Source of the DNA: Patescibacteria group bacterium
Lineage (GTDB): Bacteria; Patescibacteriota; Patescibacteriia; Patescibacteriales; JAQVLT01
Reading direction: 5' to 3'
Assembly: GCA_028704015.1 (NCBI GenBank)
Contig: JAQVLT010000008.1
Span: 1-51,941, forward strand
DNA: 51,941 nt
Shown one piece after another: positions 10,086 through 50,577 of this stretch. A program made the translations under genes and the position numbers. Within the stretch, counting starts at the first letter, position 1, and every line of letters starts with the position of its first letter. The notes under the pieces were generated by a model. It was not told where the DNA came from. It saw only the letters and a list, made by a program, of their open reading frames with translations, and searched no databases.

Positions 10086-11540
10086 ATGAATAAAATAATT
10101 TTATACAACACATTAACTCGCGAAAAAGAAGAGTTTAAGCCGATTAAAAAGGGTAAAGTCGGATTTTATCATTGCGGGCCGACGGTTTATTGGACGCAGC
10201 ATATTGGCAATATGCGCGGTATGACTTGCGCTGACGTTATTGTTAGAACGTTGAAATATTCCGGTTATGATGTGACGCACATCAGAAATTATACCGATGT
10301 CGGGCATTTAACTTCCGATGAAGATGAAGGCGAGGACAAAATGGAAAAGGGCGCTAAACGTGAAGGATTGAGCCCGGATGACATCGCCAGGAAATATATT
10401 AAAATTTTTGAACAGGACACCGCCGCTTTAAATATTTTGGAACCAAACATAAAAGCGCGCGCCACCGAACATGTTCCGGAAATGATTAAGATGGCAGAAT
10501 CTTTAATTAGCAAGGGATATGCTTATGCCACTGATTTGGCAATTTATTTTGACGTAAATAAATTTAAAGATTACGGAAATTTATCAGGCCAGAGAGTTGA
10601 AGACAAAGAGTCCGGAGCCGGCAAAGGAGAGGTTAGCGATCCGCAAAAAAGAAATCCTGAAGATTTCGCGGTTTGGTTTTTTCGAGCAGGCGCGCATAAA
10701 AATGCTTTACAATTTTGGCCATCGCCATTTCAATCTCCTTTAGTTGAAAATGGTAATGGTTTCCCGGGGTGGCACATTGAATGTTCGGCAATGAGCAAAA
10801 AATATTTAGGCGACACCATTGATATTCATATGGGCGGCATAGAACATATTCCCGTCCATCACACGAACGAAATTGCGCAATCAGAAGCCGCTAATGGGGT
10901 TAAATTTGTTAATTATTGGATTCACAATAATCATCTCGTGGTTAATGATTGCAAGATGGCAAAGTCGGAAGGCACCTGTTACAGCGTTGAGGAGGTGCGG
11001 GAAAAAGGTTTTGATCCGATAGTATTGCGTTATTTTTTCTTGGGAGCGCATTATCGCGCCAAGCAGAATTTTACCTGGGAAGCTTTATTAGCCGCCAGAA
11101 ATGGCTTTGAGCATCTGAGAAATCAGATACGAGATTTAAGATTTAACCTGCCTGCCCTGCCTACCGGACAGGCAGGCAGGGCAGGAAATTCGGATTTAAG
11201 AATTAATGAAAATTTTAAAAATATATTCTTAGAAAAAATAAATGATGATTTTAATATGCCAGAAGCGTTGGCGGTGATGCAAGAAGTTCTAAAATCTGAT
11301 TTGTCGGCCGGAGAAAAATTAGGAACAATTTTCGATTTTGATAAAGTTTTTGGATTAAATCTCGCAGGAGAAAATAACGATTTGCCTTTACCTGAGGAAA
11401 TTCAAAAATTAATTATTAATCGCCAACAGGCGCGTAAAGATAAAAATTTTTCCGAATCAGACAGATTGCGAGATGAGATCGAAAAATTAGGTTTTACAGT
11501 AGAAGATAGCAAAGAGGGAATGAGGGTTTATAAAAAATAA
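10086..11540 (+). CDS. cysS: Cysteine--tRNA ligase
   Basis: CGPTVY..HIGN, PGWHIECSAM, DIHMGG, HHTNE, KMAKS (KMSKS-like), SDRLRDEI anticodon domain. Confidence 0.97.
   Translation: MNKIILYNTLTREKEEFKPIKKGKVGFYHCGPTVYWTQHIGNMRGMTCADVIVRTLKYSGYDVTHIRNYTDVGHLTSDEDEGEDKMEKGAKREGLSPDDIARKYIKIFEQDTAALNILEPNIKARATEHVPEMIKMAESLISKGYAYATDLAIYFDVNKFKDYGNLSGQRVEDKESGAGKGEVSDPQKRNPEDFAVWFFRAGAHKNALQFWPSPFQSPLVENGNGFPGWHIECSAMSKKYLGDTIDIHMGGIEHIPVHHTNEIAQSEAANGVKFVNYWIHNNHLVVNDCKMAKSEGTCYSVEEVREKGFDPIVLRYFFLGAHYRAKQNFTWEALLAARNGFEHLRNQIRDLRFNLPALPTGQAGRAGNSDLRINENFKNIFLEKINDDFNMPEALAVMQEVLKSDLSAGEKLGTIFDFDKVFGLNLAGENNDLPLPEEIQKLIINRQQARKDKNFSESDRLRDEIEKLGFTVEDSKEGMRVYKK
11147..11185. repeat. 39-bp CCTGC..GCAGG palindromic element in frame inside cysS
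   Basis: cctgcctgccctgcctaccggacaggcaggcagggcagg, read as LPALPTGQAGRAG and flanked by GATTTAA heptamers. Confidence 0.8.
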
Positions 11541-11613: not shown

Positions 11614-12672
11614 ATGAATAATTTTTGGCAAAAATTAAAAGATAAAAAAAACTCCGCCAAGGGCGGACAGGCAATTTACGCATTGGCGCCGATGGCGGGA
11701 ATTACCGATTCGCCGTTTCGGCAGATTTGCAAAGAATTCGGTGCTGATGTTTTGTATTCCGAAATGGCGAGCGCGACCGCTTTGTTTTATGCCGGAAAAA
11801 ATCTGAAAAATAATCCGACACTGGAATTGATAAAATTTACCCCGAAAGAAAAACCATACGTAGTTCAGCTTTTTGGCAGCGAACCGAAGCACTTCGCACA
11901 TGCCGCAGATTTATTGTCAGGGCAGGGGAAGGCTATCGGACTAAAAGCTAAAAGCTATAACCTAAAAGCTCCTCAGGGTTTTGATATTAATTTCGGCTGT
12001 CCGGTGAAAAAAGTTATTAAACAAGGCGCAGGCGCGGCTCTGTTTCAGGACTTAAAAAAATCCCATGAAGTAATCAAGGCGGTAATTGACAATACAGACT
12101 TGCCGGTGTCCATAAAATTGAGGAGCGCCGCCGGCAAGGTTGATTGTTTGAAATTTTTGGATCGCATGAGTGATTTGAATATTAGTGCCGTAATGATTCA
12201 CGGCCGCAGTCTAACGCAAGGATTTTCCGGCCCGATTGATACAGAAATTATAAAAAAAGCCCGCAATTATTTTGGCGGAGTGATTTTGGCCAATGGCGGA
12301 GTTGGCCCCACCCCCAGCCCCTCTCTTAGCCAGGAGAGGGGAGCTAAAAATTATGTTGATTGGTTGTTAAAAGAATCTAATGCCGATGGTGTTGGCATTG
12401 GACAAGGGGCGCTGGGGAAACCGTGGATCTTTGAAGAAGTGAAAAGTAGAAAATTAAAAGTAAAAAGTGTTAAAGAAATTTTTGAAATTGCTTTAAGGCA
12501 CGCGAAGTTAATGGAGAAATGCAAAGGCAAGCAGGGAATTTTGGAGATGCGGAAACACCTATGTTGGTACACGCAGGGTTTGCCGGGTGCGAGGAAATTG
12601 AGAGAAGACTTGGTAAAAGTAAATACGTTAAAGGAAATTAAAAATATTTTGCAAATAAAAAAGACGAGATAA
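11614..12672 (+). CDS. dusB: tRNA-dihydrouridine synthase (DusB-like)
   Basis: LAPMAGITDSPFRQ, VQLFGSEP, DINFGCP, SIKLR, IHGRS, ANGG, MRKHLCWY. Confidence 0.92.
   Translation: MNNFWQKLKDKKNSAKGGQAIYALAPMAGITDSPFRQICKEFGADVLYSEMASATALFYAGKNLKNNPTLELIKFTPKEKPYVVQLFGSEPKHFAHAADLLSGQGKAIGLKAKSYNLKAPQGFDINFGCPVKKVIKQGAGAALFQDLKKSHEVIKAVIDNTDLPVSIKLRSAAGKVDCLKFLDRMSDLNISAVMIHGRSLTQGFSGPIDTEIIKKARNYFGGVILANGGVGPTPSPSLSQERGAKNYVDWLLKESNADGVGIGQGALGKPWIFEEVKSRKLKVKSVKEIFEIALRHAKLMEKCKGKQGILEMRKHLCWYTQGLPGARKLREDLVKVNTLKEIKNILQIKKTR
12306..12341. repeat. CCCCTCTC..GAGAGGGG REP-like hairpin in frame inside dusB
   Basis: 8-bp stem at 12318-12341 with a C-rich leader, read as PTPSPSLSQERG. Confidence 0.7.
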
Positions 12673-22829: not shown

Positions 22830-22898
22830 GATTGTGGTAAATGTTATTTTATTTTATAATAAAACATAAAGAGAGTTATGGCAAGCATTATCCTTTTT

Positions 22899-23076
22899 GC
22901 CATCTCGAGCCCGCAGGCGAGACCTGCCTGCCGGCAGACAGGGATCCCTTGAACGTGAGAAGCACAACGTCTAAGGGATTCCTCACCCGAAGCGTCGGGA
23001 TCGGAATGACAACGGACGTGGAAAAAGCGCAACATTTAAGAGATTCCTTATCTGAAGCGTCGGGAACCGAAATGAC
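22899..23076. repeat. Composite REP-like cluster (..AATGAC-ended arms, nested CCTGCC palindrome, GAAGCGTCGGGA duplications)
   Basis: Left arm gccatctcgag..gatccc. Two right arms end in cggaatgac (23010) and gaaatgac (23076). cctgcctgccggcagacagg lies at 22923-22942. Confidence 0.7.
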
Positions 23077-23184
23077 AAAGATATTTTGTATTATTTTCGT
23101 TTATTATTTAAAAAATAGACAAATTATTTTTACCAATTCATATTTGTAAATTTGTAAAAAGATTTGTTGATTTGCGGGTTGTCT

Positions 23185-34481: not shown

Positions 34482-34594
34482 TAATTTTAGATTTAAGATT
34501 TTAGATTTAAGATTTGAATTGACAAAATTTTTATATTTGGATAATATATTTTTAGTGCCCCAAAGGCATTTTTAATTTAAGATTTTTGATTTTT

Positions 34595-34614
34595 CCTGCC
34601 TGCCGGCAGGCAGG
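34595..34614. repeat. Perfect 20-bp palindrome CCTGCCTGCCGGCAGGCAGG
   Basis: Self-complementary; related copies at 11147, 22923 and 39441. Confidence 0.9.
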
Positions 34615-34631
34615 GATTTAAGATTTTGTTC

Positions 34632-34982: not shown

Positions 34983-35072
34983 AAATACAAAAAAATAATA
35001 AATAAAAATCTAAAATCAAAAATTATAAAAATAAAATCCTAAATCTTAAATCGTAAATCTAAAATTATTTAT

Positions 35073-35144
35073 TCCCGGGTAGCGCAGCGGTAGCGCAGTT
35101 CGCTGTTAACGAATTGGTCGTCGGTTCGAATCCGACCCCGGGAG
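35073..35144 (+). tRNA. tRNA-Asn (anticodon GTT), CCA not encoded
   Basis: Acceptor TCCCGGG/CCCGGGA, anticodon arm GTTCG-CT GTT AA-CGAAT, T-arm GTCGG-TTCGAAT-CCGAC. Confidence 0.95.
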
Positions 35145-35151
35145 CCGCACT

Positions 35152-39332: not shown

Positions 39333-39440
39333 TTAGGCGAGATAAAATTACTAATTATTTAGATTTTTTGCTATAATATAAATAACTAATAATTAATTAA
39401 TTTGCATGTCCTCGCAGTTATGCCTTCGGCAGCCCCGCTA

Positions 39441-39458
39441 CCTGCCTGCGCAGGCAGG
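39441..39458. repeat. Perfect 18-bp palindrome CCTGCCTGCGCAGGCAGG in the cupin leader
   Basis: Self-complementary; same family as 34595-34614. Confidence 0.85.
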
Positions 39459-39504
39459 CAAATGGGGTACATCCGAATGCGCGGGTTTGCGAAGCAAATA
39501 ACTT

Positions 39505-39903
39505 ATGAAAGGATTCAACATTAACATTGAAAAGGCGACTTTGGAAAATACAAATTTTCGCCAAGTGCTTTATACAGGCAAACACAGCCAATTAGTGCTT
39601 ATGAGTTTAAAACCAAATGAGGAGATTGGCATGGAAGTGCACGAAGAAAACGACCAATTCTTTCGTTTTGAAAAAGGGCAAGGAAAATGCATTATTGACG
39701 GTAATGAGTATGAGCTTGGCGACGGCGTGGCAATAGTAGTGCCAGTTGGCGCTCAGCACAATATTATTAATACTTCCGCCACTGAAGATTTGAAACTTTA
39801 TACCATTTATTCCCCGGCACATCATCAGGACGGCGTGGTTCGAGCTACAAAAGCCGAGGCAGAAGCCAACGGCCCGGAATTTGATGGCGTAACAACTGAG
39901 TAA
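39505..39903 (+). CDS. Cupin domain protein
   Basis: EIGMEVH..DQFF..G and PVGAQHNIIN cupin motifs. Confidence 0.9.
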   Translation: MKGFNINIEKATLENTNFRQVLYTGKHSQLVLMSLKPNEEIGMEVHEENDQFFRFEKGQGKCIIDGNEYELGDGVAIVVPVGAQHNIINTSATEDLKLYTIYSPAHHQDGVVRATKAEAEANGPEFDGVTTE

Positions 39904-49682: not shown

Positions 49683-50336
49683 ATGCAATTTAAAAATCAT
49701 AAACAATACAGATATCAAGAATACGATTATTCTCAGGACGGAATGTATTTTATAACAATCTGCACAAATAATAAAGAAATATTTTTTGGTAATATAGTCG
49801 GCAAATATTTTAATGGGTATATTGATGGCGCGATTGTTCAAATATCGGAAATTGGCCAAATTGTGAATAAATATTGGCTAGAAATTCCCAAGCATTTTCC
49901 GAATGTTATTTTGGATGAATACATGATTATGCCAAACCACGTGCACGGAATTATACAAATAAAAAACAACAACGTAGGAACAGGGCAATGCCCTGTTCCC
50001 GTGCGTGGCAATGCGACCCAAACGGCGCAATACGCCATTACAAATGTATCGCCATCCGACAGAACAGGGCAATGCCCTGTTCCTACGCGGATTATGCGAA
50101 TATCAAAATTTGGTTCGGTTACGTCGAATTCAATTTCAACCATTGTTGGGTCGTTTAAATCAATTGTTACCAAAATCGTAAATAAACAATTTCCCGAATC
50201 AGGTTTTGTCTGGCAAGCGCGATTTTATGATCGAATAATCAGAAATGAAGAAGAATTGTATGGAATTAGACAATACATAATTAATAACCCATTCAAATGG
50301 CTGGTGGATCGCGATAATCCAAAACTATCAAAATAA
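49683..50336 (+). mobile_element. REP-associated tyrosine transposase (RAYT, Y1 HUH family)
   Basis: YDYSQDGMYFITICT, MPNHVHGII (HUH), WQARFYDRIIRNEEEL..IRQYIINNP (catalytic Tyr). Confidence 0.9.
49974..50086. repeat. Inverted GTAG-type REP doublet (REPIN-like) inside the RAYT ORF
   Basis: GTAG-gaacagggca-a-tgccctgttc (49974-49998) and gaacagggca-a-tgccctgttc-CTAC (50062-50086). Confidence 0.85.
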
Positions 50337-50337
50337 A

Positions 50338-50577
50338 ATGTACCACGTTTATATTTTAAAATGCGCTGATAAAACATTTTATACGGGAATTACGAGCGAT
50401 TTCGCACGGCGCGTAGAAGAACATAATTTTTCAAATCTTGGAGCGAAATATACCCGAGGTCGGCGGCCGGTGAAATTGGTGTATTCTCGCAAATTCAAGA
50501 ATAAATCCAAGGCACTCCAAGAAGAATATCGCATCAAACAATTAACGAGAATTGAAAAAATTAATTTGATAAAATAA
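50338..50577 (+). CDS. GIY-YIG nuclease (UPF0213-like)
   Basis: VYILKCAD.TFYTGIT..RRVEEH..GAKYTRGRRPVKLVY. Confidence 0.92.
   Translation: MYHVYILKCADKTFYTGITSDFARRVEEHNFSNLGAKYTRGRRPVKLVYSRKFKNKSKALQEEYRIKQLTRIEKINLIK

What the first reader, a model, noticed from the sequence alone, without database searches (positions are those of the whole stretch)
11132..11195. Palindromic element inserted in frame in cysteinyl-tRNA synthetase
Seen: a 39-bp nested CCTGC..GCAGG palindrome flanked by GATTTAA heptamers adds LPALPTGQAGRAG between the catalytic and anticodon-binding regions. The same palindrome-in-GATTTAA context occurs non-coding at 34575-34627. Known: Rickettsia palindromic elements insert in frame into conserved proteins. 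Inference: an analogous protein-invading repeat in this lineage.
Basis: partly seen in the sequence, partly recalled or inferred. Interest (0 to 1): 0.62.

Follow-up and report, generated by a model that had tools for sequence, protein, structure and literature searches.

The report
Nested mini-palindrome translated inside CysS
The only cysteinyl-tRNA synthetase gene of this small uncultured (Patescibacteria-type) bacterium carries, in frame, a copy of a 20-41-base hairpin repeat that is scattered through its genome and through many bacterial phyla; it sits in a patch of 7-base tandem repeats and is read as a floppy surface loop, a miniature counterpart of the Rickettsia palindromic elements.

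Summary
cysS (10086-11540) holds a 39-nt GC-rich palindrome (11147-11185) in frame. It is flanked in phase by GATTTAA-type heptamers (11133-11146, 11186-11206).

- **Lineage-specific insert.** It adds about 15 residues that most of the 120 closest orthologues lack, as do the other 13 members of its CysS clade. In a structure model it lies in a low-confidence coil between two helices.
- **Nested composite.** A 21-nt hairpin (P21) sits in the centre of a 20-nt perfect palindrome (P20, CCTGCCTGCCGGCAGGCAGG). The canonical 41-nt form recurs five times in this genome.
- **Dispersed family.** The P20/P18/P21 family has about 65 sites in 1.08 Mb. Of these, 15 lie inside long ORFs, including RsmH, Pth, UvrA, a MiaB-like enzyme and a GT4.
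- **True insertion.** Filled and empty sites show that exactly 20 nt are inserted with no target duplication. Insertion favours unit junctions of 7-nt arrays and hairpin apices.
- **Wide spread.** Exact P20 occurs in at least 120 contigs of many phyla and in 35 viral-contig stretches.
- **Heptamers are separate.** They are not element ends. The genome has about 190 arrays of 7- or 14-nt period.
- **Mobilising enzyme unknown.** Y1/RAYT genes do not track P20; small GIY-YIG genes do.

The closest analogues are RPEs and the cyanobacterial SDRs.

The parts
10086..11540 (+). cysS, the only cysteinyl-tRNA synthetase gene of the genome (484 aa). The ORF is intact and the catalytic and zinc-binding residues are conserved.
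   Evidence: The ORF is listed. Pfam tRNA-synt_1e matches at E = 3e-87, together with CysS_C. The genome holds a single copy. C30, C233, H258, E262 and K290-S294 lie in invariant alignment columns. The model matches the CysRS structure 1u0b at TM 0.79.
11133..11146 (+). Left heptamers, GATTTAA x2. They encode D350-L-R-F-N354; D-L is the conserved end of helix 331-353.
11147..11185 (+). 39-nt nested palindrome, a degenerate copy of the 41-nt composite (P20 left half CCTGCCTGC + P21 + right half). It is translated as LPALPTGQAGRAG.
   Evidence: The fold is -33.1 kcal/mol, z = -5. Canonical composites lie at C1 31233, C20 71295, C19 13361, C6 9291 and C20 72543. The right arm is CAGGGCAGG instead of CGGCAGGCAGG, which makes the copy 39 nt, or 13 codons.
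11156..11176 (+). Inner 21-nt hairpin P21, CCTGCCTACCGGACAGGCAGG.
   Evidence: Identical 21-mers occur alone (C11 84648, C11 53085, C26 15354) and nested at the same position of P20 in at least 6 loci. Deleting P21 restores a perfect P20.
11186..11206 (+). Right heptamers, AAATTCG GATTTAA GAATTAA, in phase with the left ones. They encode (G)-N-S-D-L-R-I-N.
   Evidence: The phase rule for the family is shown.
34574..34627 (.). Non-coding sister site. A canonical P20 (34595-34614) lies between GATTTTT and GATTTAA heptamers, in the leader of the ORF that starts at ATG 34632.
   Evidence: (I22).
22923..22942 (.). P20 copy with one mismatch (CCTGCCTGCCGGCAGACAGG), inside a GC-rich hairpin-rich stretch with no gene.
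39441..39458 (.). P18 variant (CCTGCCTGCGCAGGCAGG) in the structured leader upstream of ORF 39505-39903.
11941..11970 (+). An in-frame heptamer array (CTAAAAG x4.3, read as LKAKSYNLKAP) in the next gene, which is dusB-like. It shows that such arrays also sit inside genes without a palindrome.

Best explanation
The cysS segment is a passenger copy of an ultra-small, non-autonomous hairpin repeat.

**The basic unit.** The unit is a 20-nt perfect palindrome (P20, CCTGCCTGCCGGCAGGCAGG; an 18-nt variant, P18, also exists). It enters DNA as exactly 20 nt and makes no target-site duplication. Its preferred targets are the junctions between units of 7-nt tandem arrays and the apex of other hairpins.

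**The nested form.** A second 21-nt hairpin (P21) nests at the centre of P20 and gives a 41-nt composite.

**What happened in cysS.**
- A copy of the composite landed in, or arrived together with, a short GATTTAA-type heptamer patch.
- The site is the loop between helix 331-353 and helix 375-385 of the helical-bundle region of CysRS.
- The units carry no stop codon in any frame of P20, and this copy is 39 nt long (13 codons).
- The ribosome therefore reads it through as a Pro/Ala/Gly/Arg-rich floppy loop, and the only cysS gene stays functional.

**What is shown.**
- It is an insertion with exact boundaries and no duplication.
- The nesting position is fixed.
- It is associated with heptamer arrays, in phase.
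- Family copies are read in frame in many conserved genes, while being depleted from genes overall.
- Its distribution crosses phyla and includes viral contigs.

**What is inferred.**
- The insert is neutral or slightly harmful rather than useful.
- Single-stranded or cruciform DNA is the substrate.
- A trans-acting structure-specific enzyme does the work. That enzyme is not identified. A small GIY-YIG nuclease is the best candidate so far, a Y1/RAYT transposase a weaker one, and a DDE transposase is excluded by the lack of target duplication.
For: **Lineage-specific insert.**
- Most of the 120 best orthologues have a short loop at this position.
- In the CysS tree, the window's clade has 14 members and only this one carries the insert.
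- E. coli CysRS needs a 12-14-residue gap here.

**Dispersed family.**
- The genome has 63 P20/P18 sites at up to 3 mismatches.
- It has 65 sites when P21 is included, at up to 2 mismatches.
- The reversed-pattern control gives 0.

**True insertion without duplication.**
- One repeat copy carries P20 (C20 59245); five aligned paralogous copies are contiguous across the site, out of seven junction-spanning BLAST matches at 94-97.5% identity.
- Three filled and four empty copies of an AT-rich repeat show the same exact 20-nt difference.

**Nesting.** P21 sits at the same position of P20 in at least 6 loci here and in two genomes of another family.

**Heptamer association.**
- Lag-7 identity of the flanks is 0.42, against 0.28 at random positions.
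- 13 of 59 copies have a strongly periodic flank, against 1.1% at random.
- Removing exactly the core restores the array phase: 0.62 at offset 0 and 0.56 at offset 7, against 0.2-0.3 at most other offsets.

**Translated copies.** Pfam domains lie on both sides of copies in RsmH, Pth, UvrA, an ADP-forming acetyl-CoA synthetase, a MiaB-like enzyme, FemAB, GT4, Wzy and an MBL protein.

**Stop codons.** P20 and P18 are stop-free in all six frames.

**Depletion from genes.** 15 of 65 sites lie in long ORFs that cover about 75% of the genome (p = 8e-15).

**Structure.** In an AF2 model with mean pLDDT 88, the insert is coil with pLDDT 55-73.

**Independent landings in the same loop.** Relatives carry other palindromes inside other heptamer arrays at this loop (L025, L031). 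Eight carry arrays alone. Such arrays occur nowhere else in cysS.
Against: - No empty cysS allele could be examined. Insertion at this particular site therefore rests on protein alignment.
- The right arm departs from the canonical composite, so the copy is old or remodelled.
- The cysS module, heptamers plus palindrome, closely resembles the intergenic C20 71295 module across about 85 nt (97.7% over the best 44-nt match). The array and the palindrome may thus have arrived together, which a pure 'landing pad' model does not predict.
- No mobilising enzyme has been demonstrated.
- Identity of a 20-mer across phyla is hard to explain by ordinary descent of a selfish element.
- Translation of the loop has not been observed directly.
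Confidence: 0.8

Rival explanations
1. The palindromes are REP/REPIN-type elements mobilised by the genome's RAYT-like (IS200/IS605-type Y1 HUH) transposases. The cysS copy would be a rare intragenic REP.
For: - The genome has six Y1_Tnp (PF01797) matches, five of them COG1943/RAYT-like.
- One of these (C11 71994-72524) has a P20 variant directly upstream of its start.
- Insertion without target duplication and hairpin recognition both fit HUH chemistry.
Against: - Across 61 genomes of the order, P20 copy number does not follow Y1_Tnp count (rho 0.20, p = 0.13).
- 6 of 18 P20-rich genomes have no Y1_Tnp, including a 100%-complete genome with 16 copies.
- 15 of 25 genomes without P20 do have Y1_Tnp.
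- The copies carry no conserved GTAG-type head.
- They are mostly singletons rather than inverted doublets.
- The IS200-like gene at C20 21183 is flanked by quite different hairpins.
Confidence: 0.12
2. The palindrome arose in place by replication slippage or template switching in (CCTG)n/(CAGG)n-like sequence next to a slippery heptamer tract. On this view no mobile unit exists.
For: - The arms are built of CCTG/CAGG tetramers.
- Arm-length variants exist (C14 9231 has three CCTG on one side).
- Heptamer arrays are classic slippage products (Mrazek et al. 2007, as summarised in PMC4679880).
Against: - The identical 20-mer lies at dozens of unrelated sites.
- Filled and empty pairs have exact boundaries.
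- The 41-nt composite is identical in different genomes.
- Exact copies occur in at least 120 contigs of many phyla, where about one is expected by chance in 596 Gb.
Confidence: 0.05
3. The insert is kept because it is useful. It could serve as a new CysRS surface loop, for example as a partner-binding site. Or it could serve as an mRNA hairpin that paces translation between the catalytic and anticodon-binding parts, or that modulates the cysK-cysS-dusB transcript.
For: - It sits in the only cysS copy and has kept the frame.
- Its right arm was remodelled to a perfect 12-bp stem and to a length of 13 codons.
- The same loop carries inserts in many lineages.
Against: - The sequence is that of non-coding copies.
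- Clade mates lack it.
- Inserts at this loop in other lineages share no peptide motif.
- The model gives it low confidence and no contacts.
- The family is strongly depleted from genes.
Confidence: 0.06
4. Assembly artefact: a palindromic repeat was wrongly joined into cysS during metagenome assembly.
For: Short GC-rich palindromes and tandem repeats are known trouble spots for assemblers. Reads could not be inspected.
Against: - The reading frame is kept exactly and both flanks are cysS.
- The copy is a unique variant, not identical to any other copy.
- The same architecture appears at this loop in independently assembled genomes.
Confidence: 0.02

Closest known systems
Rickettsia palindromic elements (RPE; Ogata et al. 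2000/2002, from my own knowledge)
   Same: - It is a dispersed palindromic repeat found both between genes and in frame inside conserved, essential genes.
- It is translated as an extra surface segment that leaves the fold intact.
   Different: - RPEs are about 100-150 bp and restricted to Rickettsia; this unit is 20-41 nt.
- This unit is nested and sits in heptamer arrays.
- The same 20-mer occurs in many phyla and in viral contigs.
- No sequence relationship to RPEs was tested.
Small dispersed repeats (SDR) of Nostoc punctiforme and the heptameric STRR repeats of cyanobacteria (Elhai et al. 2008, Genome Res 18:1484, cited in PMC3116915; the paper itself is not held, so details are from memory)
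   Same: - They are very small (about 21-27 nt) hairpin-forming repeats.
- They lie inside tandem heptamer repeats and inside one another.
- They appear to insert without target duplication.
- This is the closest match in mechanism and anatomy.
   Different: - SDRs were described in cyanobacteria and, as far as I recall, are not known for in-frame residence in essential genes.
- Whether P20 or P21 matches any SDR family in sequence could not be checked.
- The host here is a Patescibacteria-type genome.
REP/REPIN elements with RAYT transposases (Bertels and Rainey 2011, PMC3116915)
   Same: - They are short GC-rich imperfect palindromes in many copies.
- Hairpin recognition is likely.
- There is no target duplication.
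- Y1 HUH genes are present in the genome.
   Different: - REPs are extragenic, species-specific, carry a conserved head and usually occur as doublets beside a single RAYT.
- Here copies enter genes.
- The same sequence crosses phyla.
- Copy number does not follow Y1 genes.
Heptanucleotide simple-sequence repeats of bacteria (Mrazek et al. 2007, as summarised in PMC4679880 and PMC4692102)
   Same: Tandem arrays of 7-nt period are strongly over-represented: 111 of period 7 and 79 of period 14, against 3 and 3 in a simulated genome.
   Different: - The arrays described so far are mostly intergenic and usually of one dominant unit per genome.
- Here the units differ from site to site.
- 59 of 196 arrays lie inside long ORFs.
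- They serve as landing sites for hairpins.

Membership tests
Rickettsia palindromic elements (RPE) | In-frame insertion into conserved protein-coding genes at positions that do not disrupt the fold | tested here: met
   cysS and at least 10 further genes have Pfam domains on both sides of the copy. In the model the insert is a low-confidence coil between helices.
Rickettsia palindromic elements (RPE) | Element of about 100-150 bp belonging to the RPE sequence families of Rickettsia | tested here: not met
   The unit is 20-41 nt. The host is Patescibacteria-like. No RPE sequence comparison was made.
REP/REPIN-RAYT | Short imperfect GC-rich palindrome present in many copies | tested here: met
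   The genome has 63-65 sites in 1.08 Mb.
REP/REPIN-RAYT | Extragenic location | tested here: not met
   15 of 65 sites lie inside long ORFs, this one in cysS.
REP/REPIN-RAYT | A cognate RAYT gene flanked by the repeats, with co-occurrence across genomes | tested here: not met
   Only 1 of 6 Y1 genes has a P20 variant nearby. Across 61 genomes rho is 0.20, and 6 of 18 P20-rich genomes have no Y1_Tnp. The test was not corrected for phylogeny.
REP/REPIN-RAYT | Conserved tetranucleotide head (GTAG-like) and inverted doublet (REPIN) organisation | tested here: not met
   The flanks differ at every site and no GTAG head is seen. Copies are singletons or nested, not spaced doublets.
Cyanobacterial SDR (Elhai 2008) | Hairpin repeat of about 21-27 nt embedded in tandem heptamer repeats | tested here: met
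   The units are 18-21 nt. Flank lag-7 identity is enriched and the units sit in phase. cysS and 34595 are examples.
Cyanobacterial SDR (Elhai 2008) | Elements nested within one another; insertion without target duplication | tested here: met
   P21 sits inside P20 at a fixed position. Filled and empty pairs differ by exactly 20 nt.
Cyanobacterial SDR (Elhai 2008) | Sequence identity to one of the SDR1-8 families | not testable with these tools
   The paper is not held and I do not trust my memory for the consensus sequences.
MITE (DDE-transposase derived) | Terminal inverted repeats plus a target-site duplication of fixed length | tested here: not met
   Empty sites are contiguous with no duplicated bases, within a 1-nt boundary ambiguity.
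Heptanucleotide SSR / STRR-type arrays (flanks only) | Tandem 7-nt units over-represented relative to composition | tested here: met
   TRF finds 111 arrays of period 7 and 79 of period 14, against 3 and 3 in a third-order Markov genome.

The most novel reading that the evidence does not exclude
P20 and P21 may be the cis parts of an undescribed, cross-phylum class of the smallest known mobile DNA: bare 20-21-nt hairpins.

On this reading:
- They are moved, without target duplication, by a structure-specific enzyme. The best candidate is the roughly 80-aa GIY-YIG nuclease, whose gene abuts P20 at disrupted tRNA genes.
- They home to hairpin apices and to junctions of heptamer arrays.
- They spread between phyla on phages.
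- They shape the loops of essential proteins in ultra-small bacteria.
- The heptamer arrays could themselves be products of, or co-evolved landing pads for, the same machinery.
Probability: 0.25. Interest if true: 0.85.

Novelty: new variant of a known kind. Interest (0 to 1): 0.6.

Why it matters
- **Size limit of insertable DNA.** A fixed 20-nt unit can behave as an insertion even in a 1-Mb streamlined genome, and it reaches the single copy of an essential aminoacyl-tRNA synthetase.
- **A concrete system to test.** The material includes exact filled and empty sites, a fixed nesting position, a defined target class (7-nt arrays) and two candidate enzymes. Together they could address two old open questions: what makes and maintains heptanucleotide repeats in bacteria, and how 'very small' repeats move.
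[quoted passage not shown] They should not be read as functional motifs.
- **Possible spread route.** The same 20-mer in Patescibacteria, Omnitrophota, Bacteroidota, Planctomycetota, Proteobacteria and viral contigs points to either horizontal spread or a shared enzymatic origin.

Tried and rejected
1. **A 7-bp target-site duplication as the origin of the flanking heptamers.** Rejected. Empty sites show no duplicated bases, although the phase test alone could not separate offsets 0 and 7.
2. **Heptamers as fixed termini of the element.** Rejected. The units differ between sites (GATTTAA, GCTTTTA, GACGGCA, TTTGCAT and others).
3. **Known RNA families.** Rfam at gathering thresholds found only two tRNAs in the window.
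4. **Single-sequence AlphaFold.** The model was useless (pLDDT 36.6). It was repeated with a 120-sequence alignment.
5. **An empty cysS allele.** None is available; the best orthologue is 68-70% identical and no genome of the same family or genus is held.
7. **Elhai et al. 2008.** The paper is not held.
8. **Literature on palindromes or heptamers inside CPR genes.** No paper in the held library mentions RPEs or heptamer repeats together with CPR/Patescibacteria.
9. **Adjacency of P20 to the small GIY-YIG genes of this genome.** None of the five sits next to a canonical P20 (one follows a 41-nt P20+P21 composite); they lie at tRNA genes with other palindromes. Adjacency does appear elsewhere.
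Full report
**Observation.** The window reads GATTTAA GATTTAA (11133-11146), then CCTGCCTGCCCTGCCTACCGGACAGGCAGGCAGGGCAGG (11147-11185), then AAATTCG GATTTAA GAATTAA (11186-11206).
- The 39-mer folds into a 12-bp perfect stem with a short inner stem at -33.1 kcal/mol. Shuffles average -16.9, z = -5.0, and none of 200 folds as well.
- It lies in frame in a 484-codon ORF (10086-11540). That ORF is a complete cysteinyl-tRNA synthetase: Pfam tRNA-synt_1e at E = 3e-87 plus CysS_C.
- It is the only cysS in the 1.08-Mb, 27-contig genome.
- The palindrome covers codons 354-367, N-LPALPTGQAGRAG.
- The core word and the heptamer word are both far above chance in the window: 13 against 1.2 expected, and 13 against 2.05 expected.
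It is GATTTTT GATTTTT | CCTGCCTGCCGGCAGGCAGG (34595-34614) | GATTTAA GATTTT, 17 nt before an ATG.
- That second site holds the plain 20-mer, not the 39-mer.

**Is it an insert?**
- Among the 120 best homologues (Patescibacteria, 59-70% identity), most have L-G-x-x-x-G-x where this protein has RFNLPALPTGQAGRAGNSDLR, a difference of about 15 residues.
- E. coli CysRS needs a 12-14-residue gap at the same place.
- The long, unrelated loop of the Borrelia enzyme aligns almost without gaps.
- In a maximum-likelihood tree of 27 CysS sequences from genomes of the same order, the window's protein belongs to a 14-member clade (100/100 support). It is the only member of that clade with an array or palindrome.
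- An AlphaFold model built on the 120-sequence alignment (mean pLDDT 88.3) matches the CysRS-tRNA complex 1u0b at TM 0.79.
- The model places the insert in a coil between helix 331-353 and helix 375-385. Block pLDDT there is 73 and 55, and residues 362-364 fall below 50.
- Catalytic and zinc-binding residues lie in invariant alignment columns.

**What the palindrome is.**
- Genome-wide there are 26 strict and 63 relaxed (up to 3 mismatches) copies of two cores: P20, CCTGCCTGCCGGCAGGCAGG, and P18, CCTGCCTGCGCAGGCAGG.
- The cysS copy is nested. Its middle, 11156-11176, is a 21-nt hairpin, P21 (CCTGCCTACCGGACAGGCAGG).
- P21 occurs alone at three sites. It also occurs inserted at the same position of P20 (CCTGCC TGC | P21 | CGGCAGGCAGG) in at least six loci.
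- The canonical 41-nt composite is found five times here. It also appears in two genomes of another family, six times in one of them.
- In cysS the right outer arm is CAGGGCAGG instead of CGGCAGGCAGG. This gives a perfect 12-bp stem and a length of 39 nt, exactly 13 codons.
- The closest copy is the intergenic composite between a lemA-like and a TPM-domain gene (C20 71295). It also sits in GATTTAA/GAATTAA heptamers and matches cysS at 97.7% over its best 44-nt stretch, with similar heptamer flanks over about 85 nt.
- I therefore cannot tell whether the palindrome landed in an existing array or the whole module was copied.

**It is a genuine insertion unit.** I joined the two flanks of each copy and searched the genome with the result. 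This produced clean empty sites.
- One copy of a multi-copy GC-rich repeat carries P20 (C20 59245). Seven paralogous copies match the joined flanks across the junction at 94-97.5%, and the five I aligned are contiguous there.
- Three copies of an AT-rich repeat carry P20 between ...CAATTAA and AATTTA..., while four copies are uninterrupted at that point.
- In both sets the difference is exactly 20 nt, with no duplicated target bases (1-nt boundary ambiguity in the first).
- Deleting P21 from composites restores a perfect P20.
- This excludes a DDE-type transposon. It also disproved my own interim idea of a 7-bp target duplication.

**The heptamers are a separate layer.**
- Tandem Repeats Finder gives 111 arrays of period 7 and 79 of period 14. 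A third-order Markov genome gives 3 and 3.
- The units are diverse, for example AGCTTTT, TTTACTA, TAACACA, GTAGAAA and CGCGTAA.
- 59 of 196 arrays lie inside stop-to-stop ORFs of at least 200 codons, a set that includes some spurious antisense frames. One is in the dusB-like gene next to cysS (11941-11970).
- Palindrome flanks are enriched for 7-nt periodicity: lag-7 identity is 0.42 against 0.28, and 13 of 59 copies have a strongly periodic flank against 1.1% of random positions.
- Removing exactly the core restores the array phase. Cross-junction identity is 0.62 at offset 0 and 0.56 at offset 7, and 0.2-0.3 at most other offsets.
- The cysS site obeys the same rule.

**The same loop in relatives.**
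- Eight have arrays only, each with a different unit: (AAAACTC)5, (GAATTTC)4, (GAWTTAG)8, (GGAATTA)5, (GACGGCA)4, (GGGAACM)5, (AGTWAAA)6 and a GAAATTG tract.
- Two have a different GC-rich palindrome inside a different array: CAATTTT x3 | TCCGCCCGAGGCGGATCCGCCTCAGGCGGA | CAATTTT x2, and GAAATTG | GTCGCCGACGCTCC...GGAGCG | AAATTGG.
- Strongly 7-periodic tracts occur nowhere else in these cysS genes.
- Ten of thirteen members of the other CysS clade carry such a feature.
- The loop is therefore a recurrent tolerant site, and different hairpins have entered arrays there independently.

**Translation in other genes.**
- Fifteen of 65 family sites lie inside long ORFs. Those ORFs cover about 75% of the genome, so the family is strongly depleted from genes (p = 8e-15).
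- Ten ORFs were checked against Pfam. Most have domain matches on both sides of the copy or spanning it:
  - RsmH
  - Pth
  - an MBL/ComEC-like protein
  - UvrA
  - a DUF4012 protein
  - an ADP-forming acetyl-CoA synthetase
  - a Wzy-type ligase
  - a MiaB-like radical-SAM enzyme
  - FemAB
  - a GT4 glycosyltransferase
- P20 is 20 nt long, and both halves of these proteins stay in one frame when P20 is read through. The copies are therefore translated, not excised.
- P20 and P18 have no stop codon in any of the six frames. P21 has one.

**Distribution.**
- P20 with up to 1 mismatch occurs in 36 of 61 genomes of the order. The highest count among the 60 relatives is 22, and this genome has 35. 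The reversed control gives none.
- Those hits include Patescibacteria groups, Omnitrophota, Bacteroidota (cultured isolates among them), Planctomycetota, Proteobacteria, Bdellovibrionales, Thermodesulfovibrionales and Chloroflexi.
- It was also found in 35 stretches of viral contigs.
- Many of these copies again lie between short direct or 7-8-nt tandem repeats. Several interrupt tRNA genes in the D arm or variable loop.

**Who moves it?**
- The genome has six Y1_Tnp matches: one IS200-like gene with its own, different hairpins, and five RAYT-like genes. Only one of them has a P20 variant next to it.
- Across the 61 genomes, P20 number does not follow Y1_Tnp number (rho 0.20, p = 0.13). Six of 18 P20-rich genomes have no Y1_Tnp.
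- P20 number does follow GIY-YIG number (rho 0.58, p = 8e-7). This test is not corrected for phylogeny or for general mobile-element load.
- With an HMM of this genome's five small GIY-YIG proteins, 5 of 120 P20 loci from other genomes had such a gene within 150 nt of P20. From the gene's density I would expect about 0.3.
- One of 35 viral loci had the same arrangement, at a tRNA D-loop insertion.
- In this genome the small GIY-YIG genes sit at tRNA genes and none abuts a canonical P20 (one follows a P20+P21 composite).
- I treat the GIY-YIG link as a lead, not a finding.

**Comparison with known systems.**
- In behaviour, an in-frame passenger in essential genes, this is like the Rickettsia palindromic elements, but five times smaller and not lineage-restricted.
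- In anatomy, a hairpin of about 20 nt, nested, inside heptamer repeats and without duplication, it is closest to the small dispersed repeats of Nostoc (Elhai et al. 2008). I could only cite that paper through PMC3116915, because it is not held.
- It fails the tests for REP/RAYT membership (extragenic location, head motif, doublets, linkage to a RAYT) and for MITEs (target duplication).
- Over-representation of heptanucleotide repeats in bacteria is known but unexplained (PMC4679880, PMC4692102).
- I found no paper in the held library that describes such repeats or in-gene palindromes in CPR/Patescibacteria.
- Earlier notes of this scan describe the same phenomenon in other genomes and in another piece of this one. 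I read them after reaching the heptamer/SDR reading (note). I re-tested their main claims here: no target duplication, cross-phylum spread, and the GIY-YIG link.

**Verdict.** The cysS insert is one well-resolved instance of a genome-wide and cross-phylum phenomenon. It is a variant of known kinds (RPE-like in effect, SDR-like in form) whose mechanism is still open.

Noticed in passing
window 49683-50336 and 50338-50577: A RAYT-like (COG1943/Y1_Tnp) ORF is followed, one base after its stop, by a 79-aa GIY-YIG (YhbQ/Slx1-like) ORF. The RAYT-like protein itself contains a repeat-derived insert (TGQCPVP...TGQCPVP).
   Followed up: partly
genome contig C6 about 82750-82830 (outside the window); loci L051, L073, L199, L192: P20 sits inside tRNA genes, in the D loop or arm in C6, L051, L073 and L199 and in the variable loop in L192. 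In L073 and L199 a small GIY-YIG ORF follows directly. The C6 tRNA-like sequence also carries a second palindrome (TCCCGCCGAGGCGGGA).
   Followed up: partly
window 39400-39500: A structured-looking GC-rich leader upstream of ORF 39505-39903 has a P18 palindrome between complementary CCCC/GGGG arms. It matches no Rfam family at gathering score.
   Followed up: no
window 22880-23150: A GC-rich stretch of several different short hairpins includes a 1-mismatch P20. It has no convincing gene and resembles the multi-copy GC-rich repeats on contig C20 that supplied the empty sites.
   Followed up: partly
window 34484-34545 and 35000-35065: Heptamer arrays (ATTTTAG ATTTAAG x2.3; TAAAATC CTAAATC...) directly abut a TTGACA-N17-TATAAT-like promoter and the 5' side of tRNA-Asn (35073-35146).
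   Followed up: no
genome contigs C19 1-134 and C20 37920-38046: Two very long perfect heptamer arrays: (TACGATT)19 at a contig end and (TAATTGT)18. The first may explain a break in the assembly.
   Followed up: no
loci L019, L020 (G015, G051) and G025:C13: cysS of some relatives has further large in-frame insertions at other positions, around residue 428 and around residues 200-221 of the window's protein.
   Followed up: no
locus L014 (G034:C26): cysS of one relative shows an in-frame TAA inside the match. This could be a pseudogene, a sequencing error or recoding.
   Followed up: no
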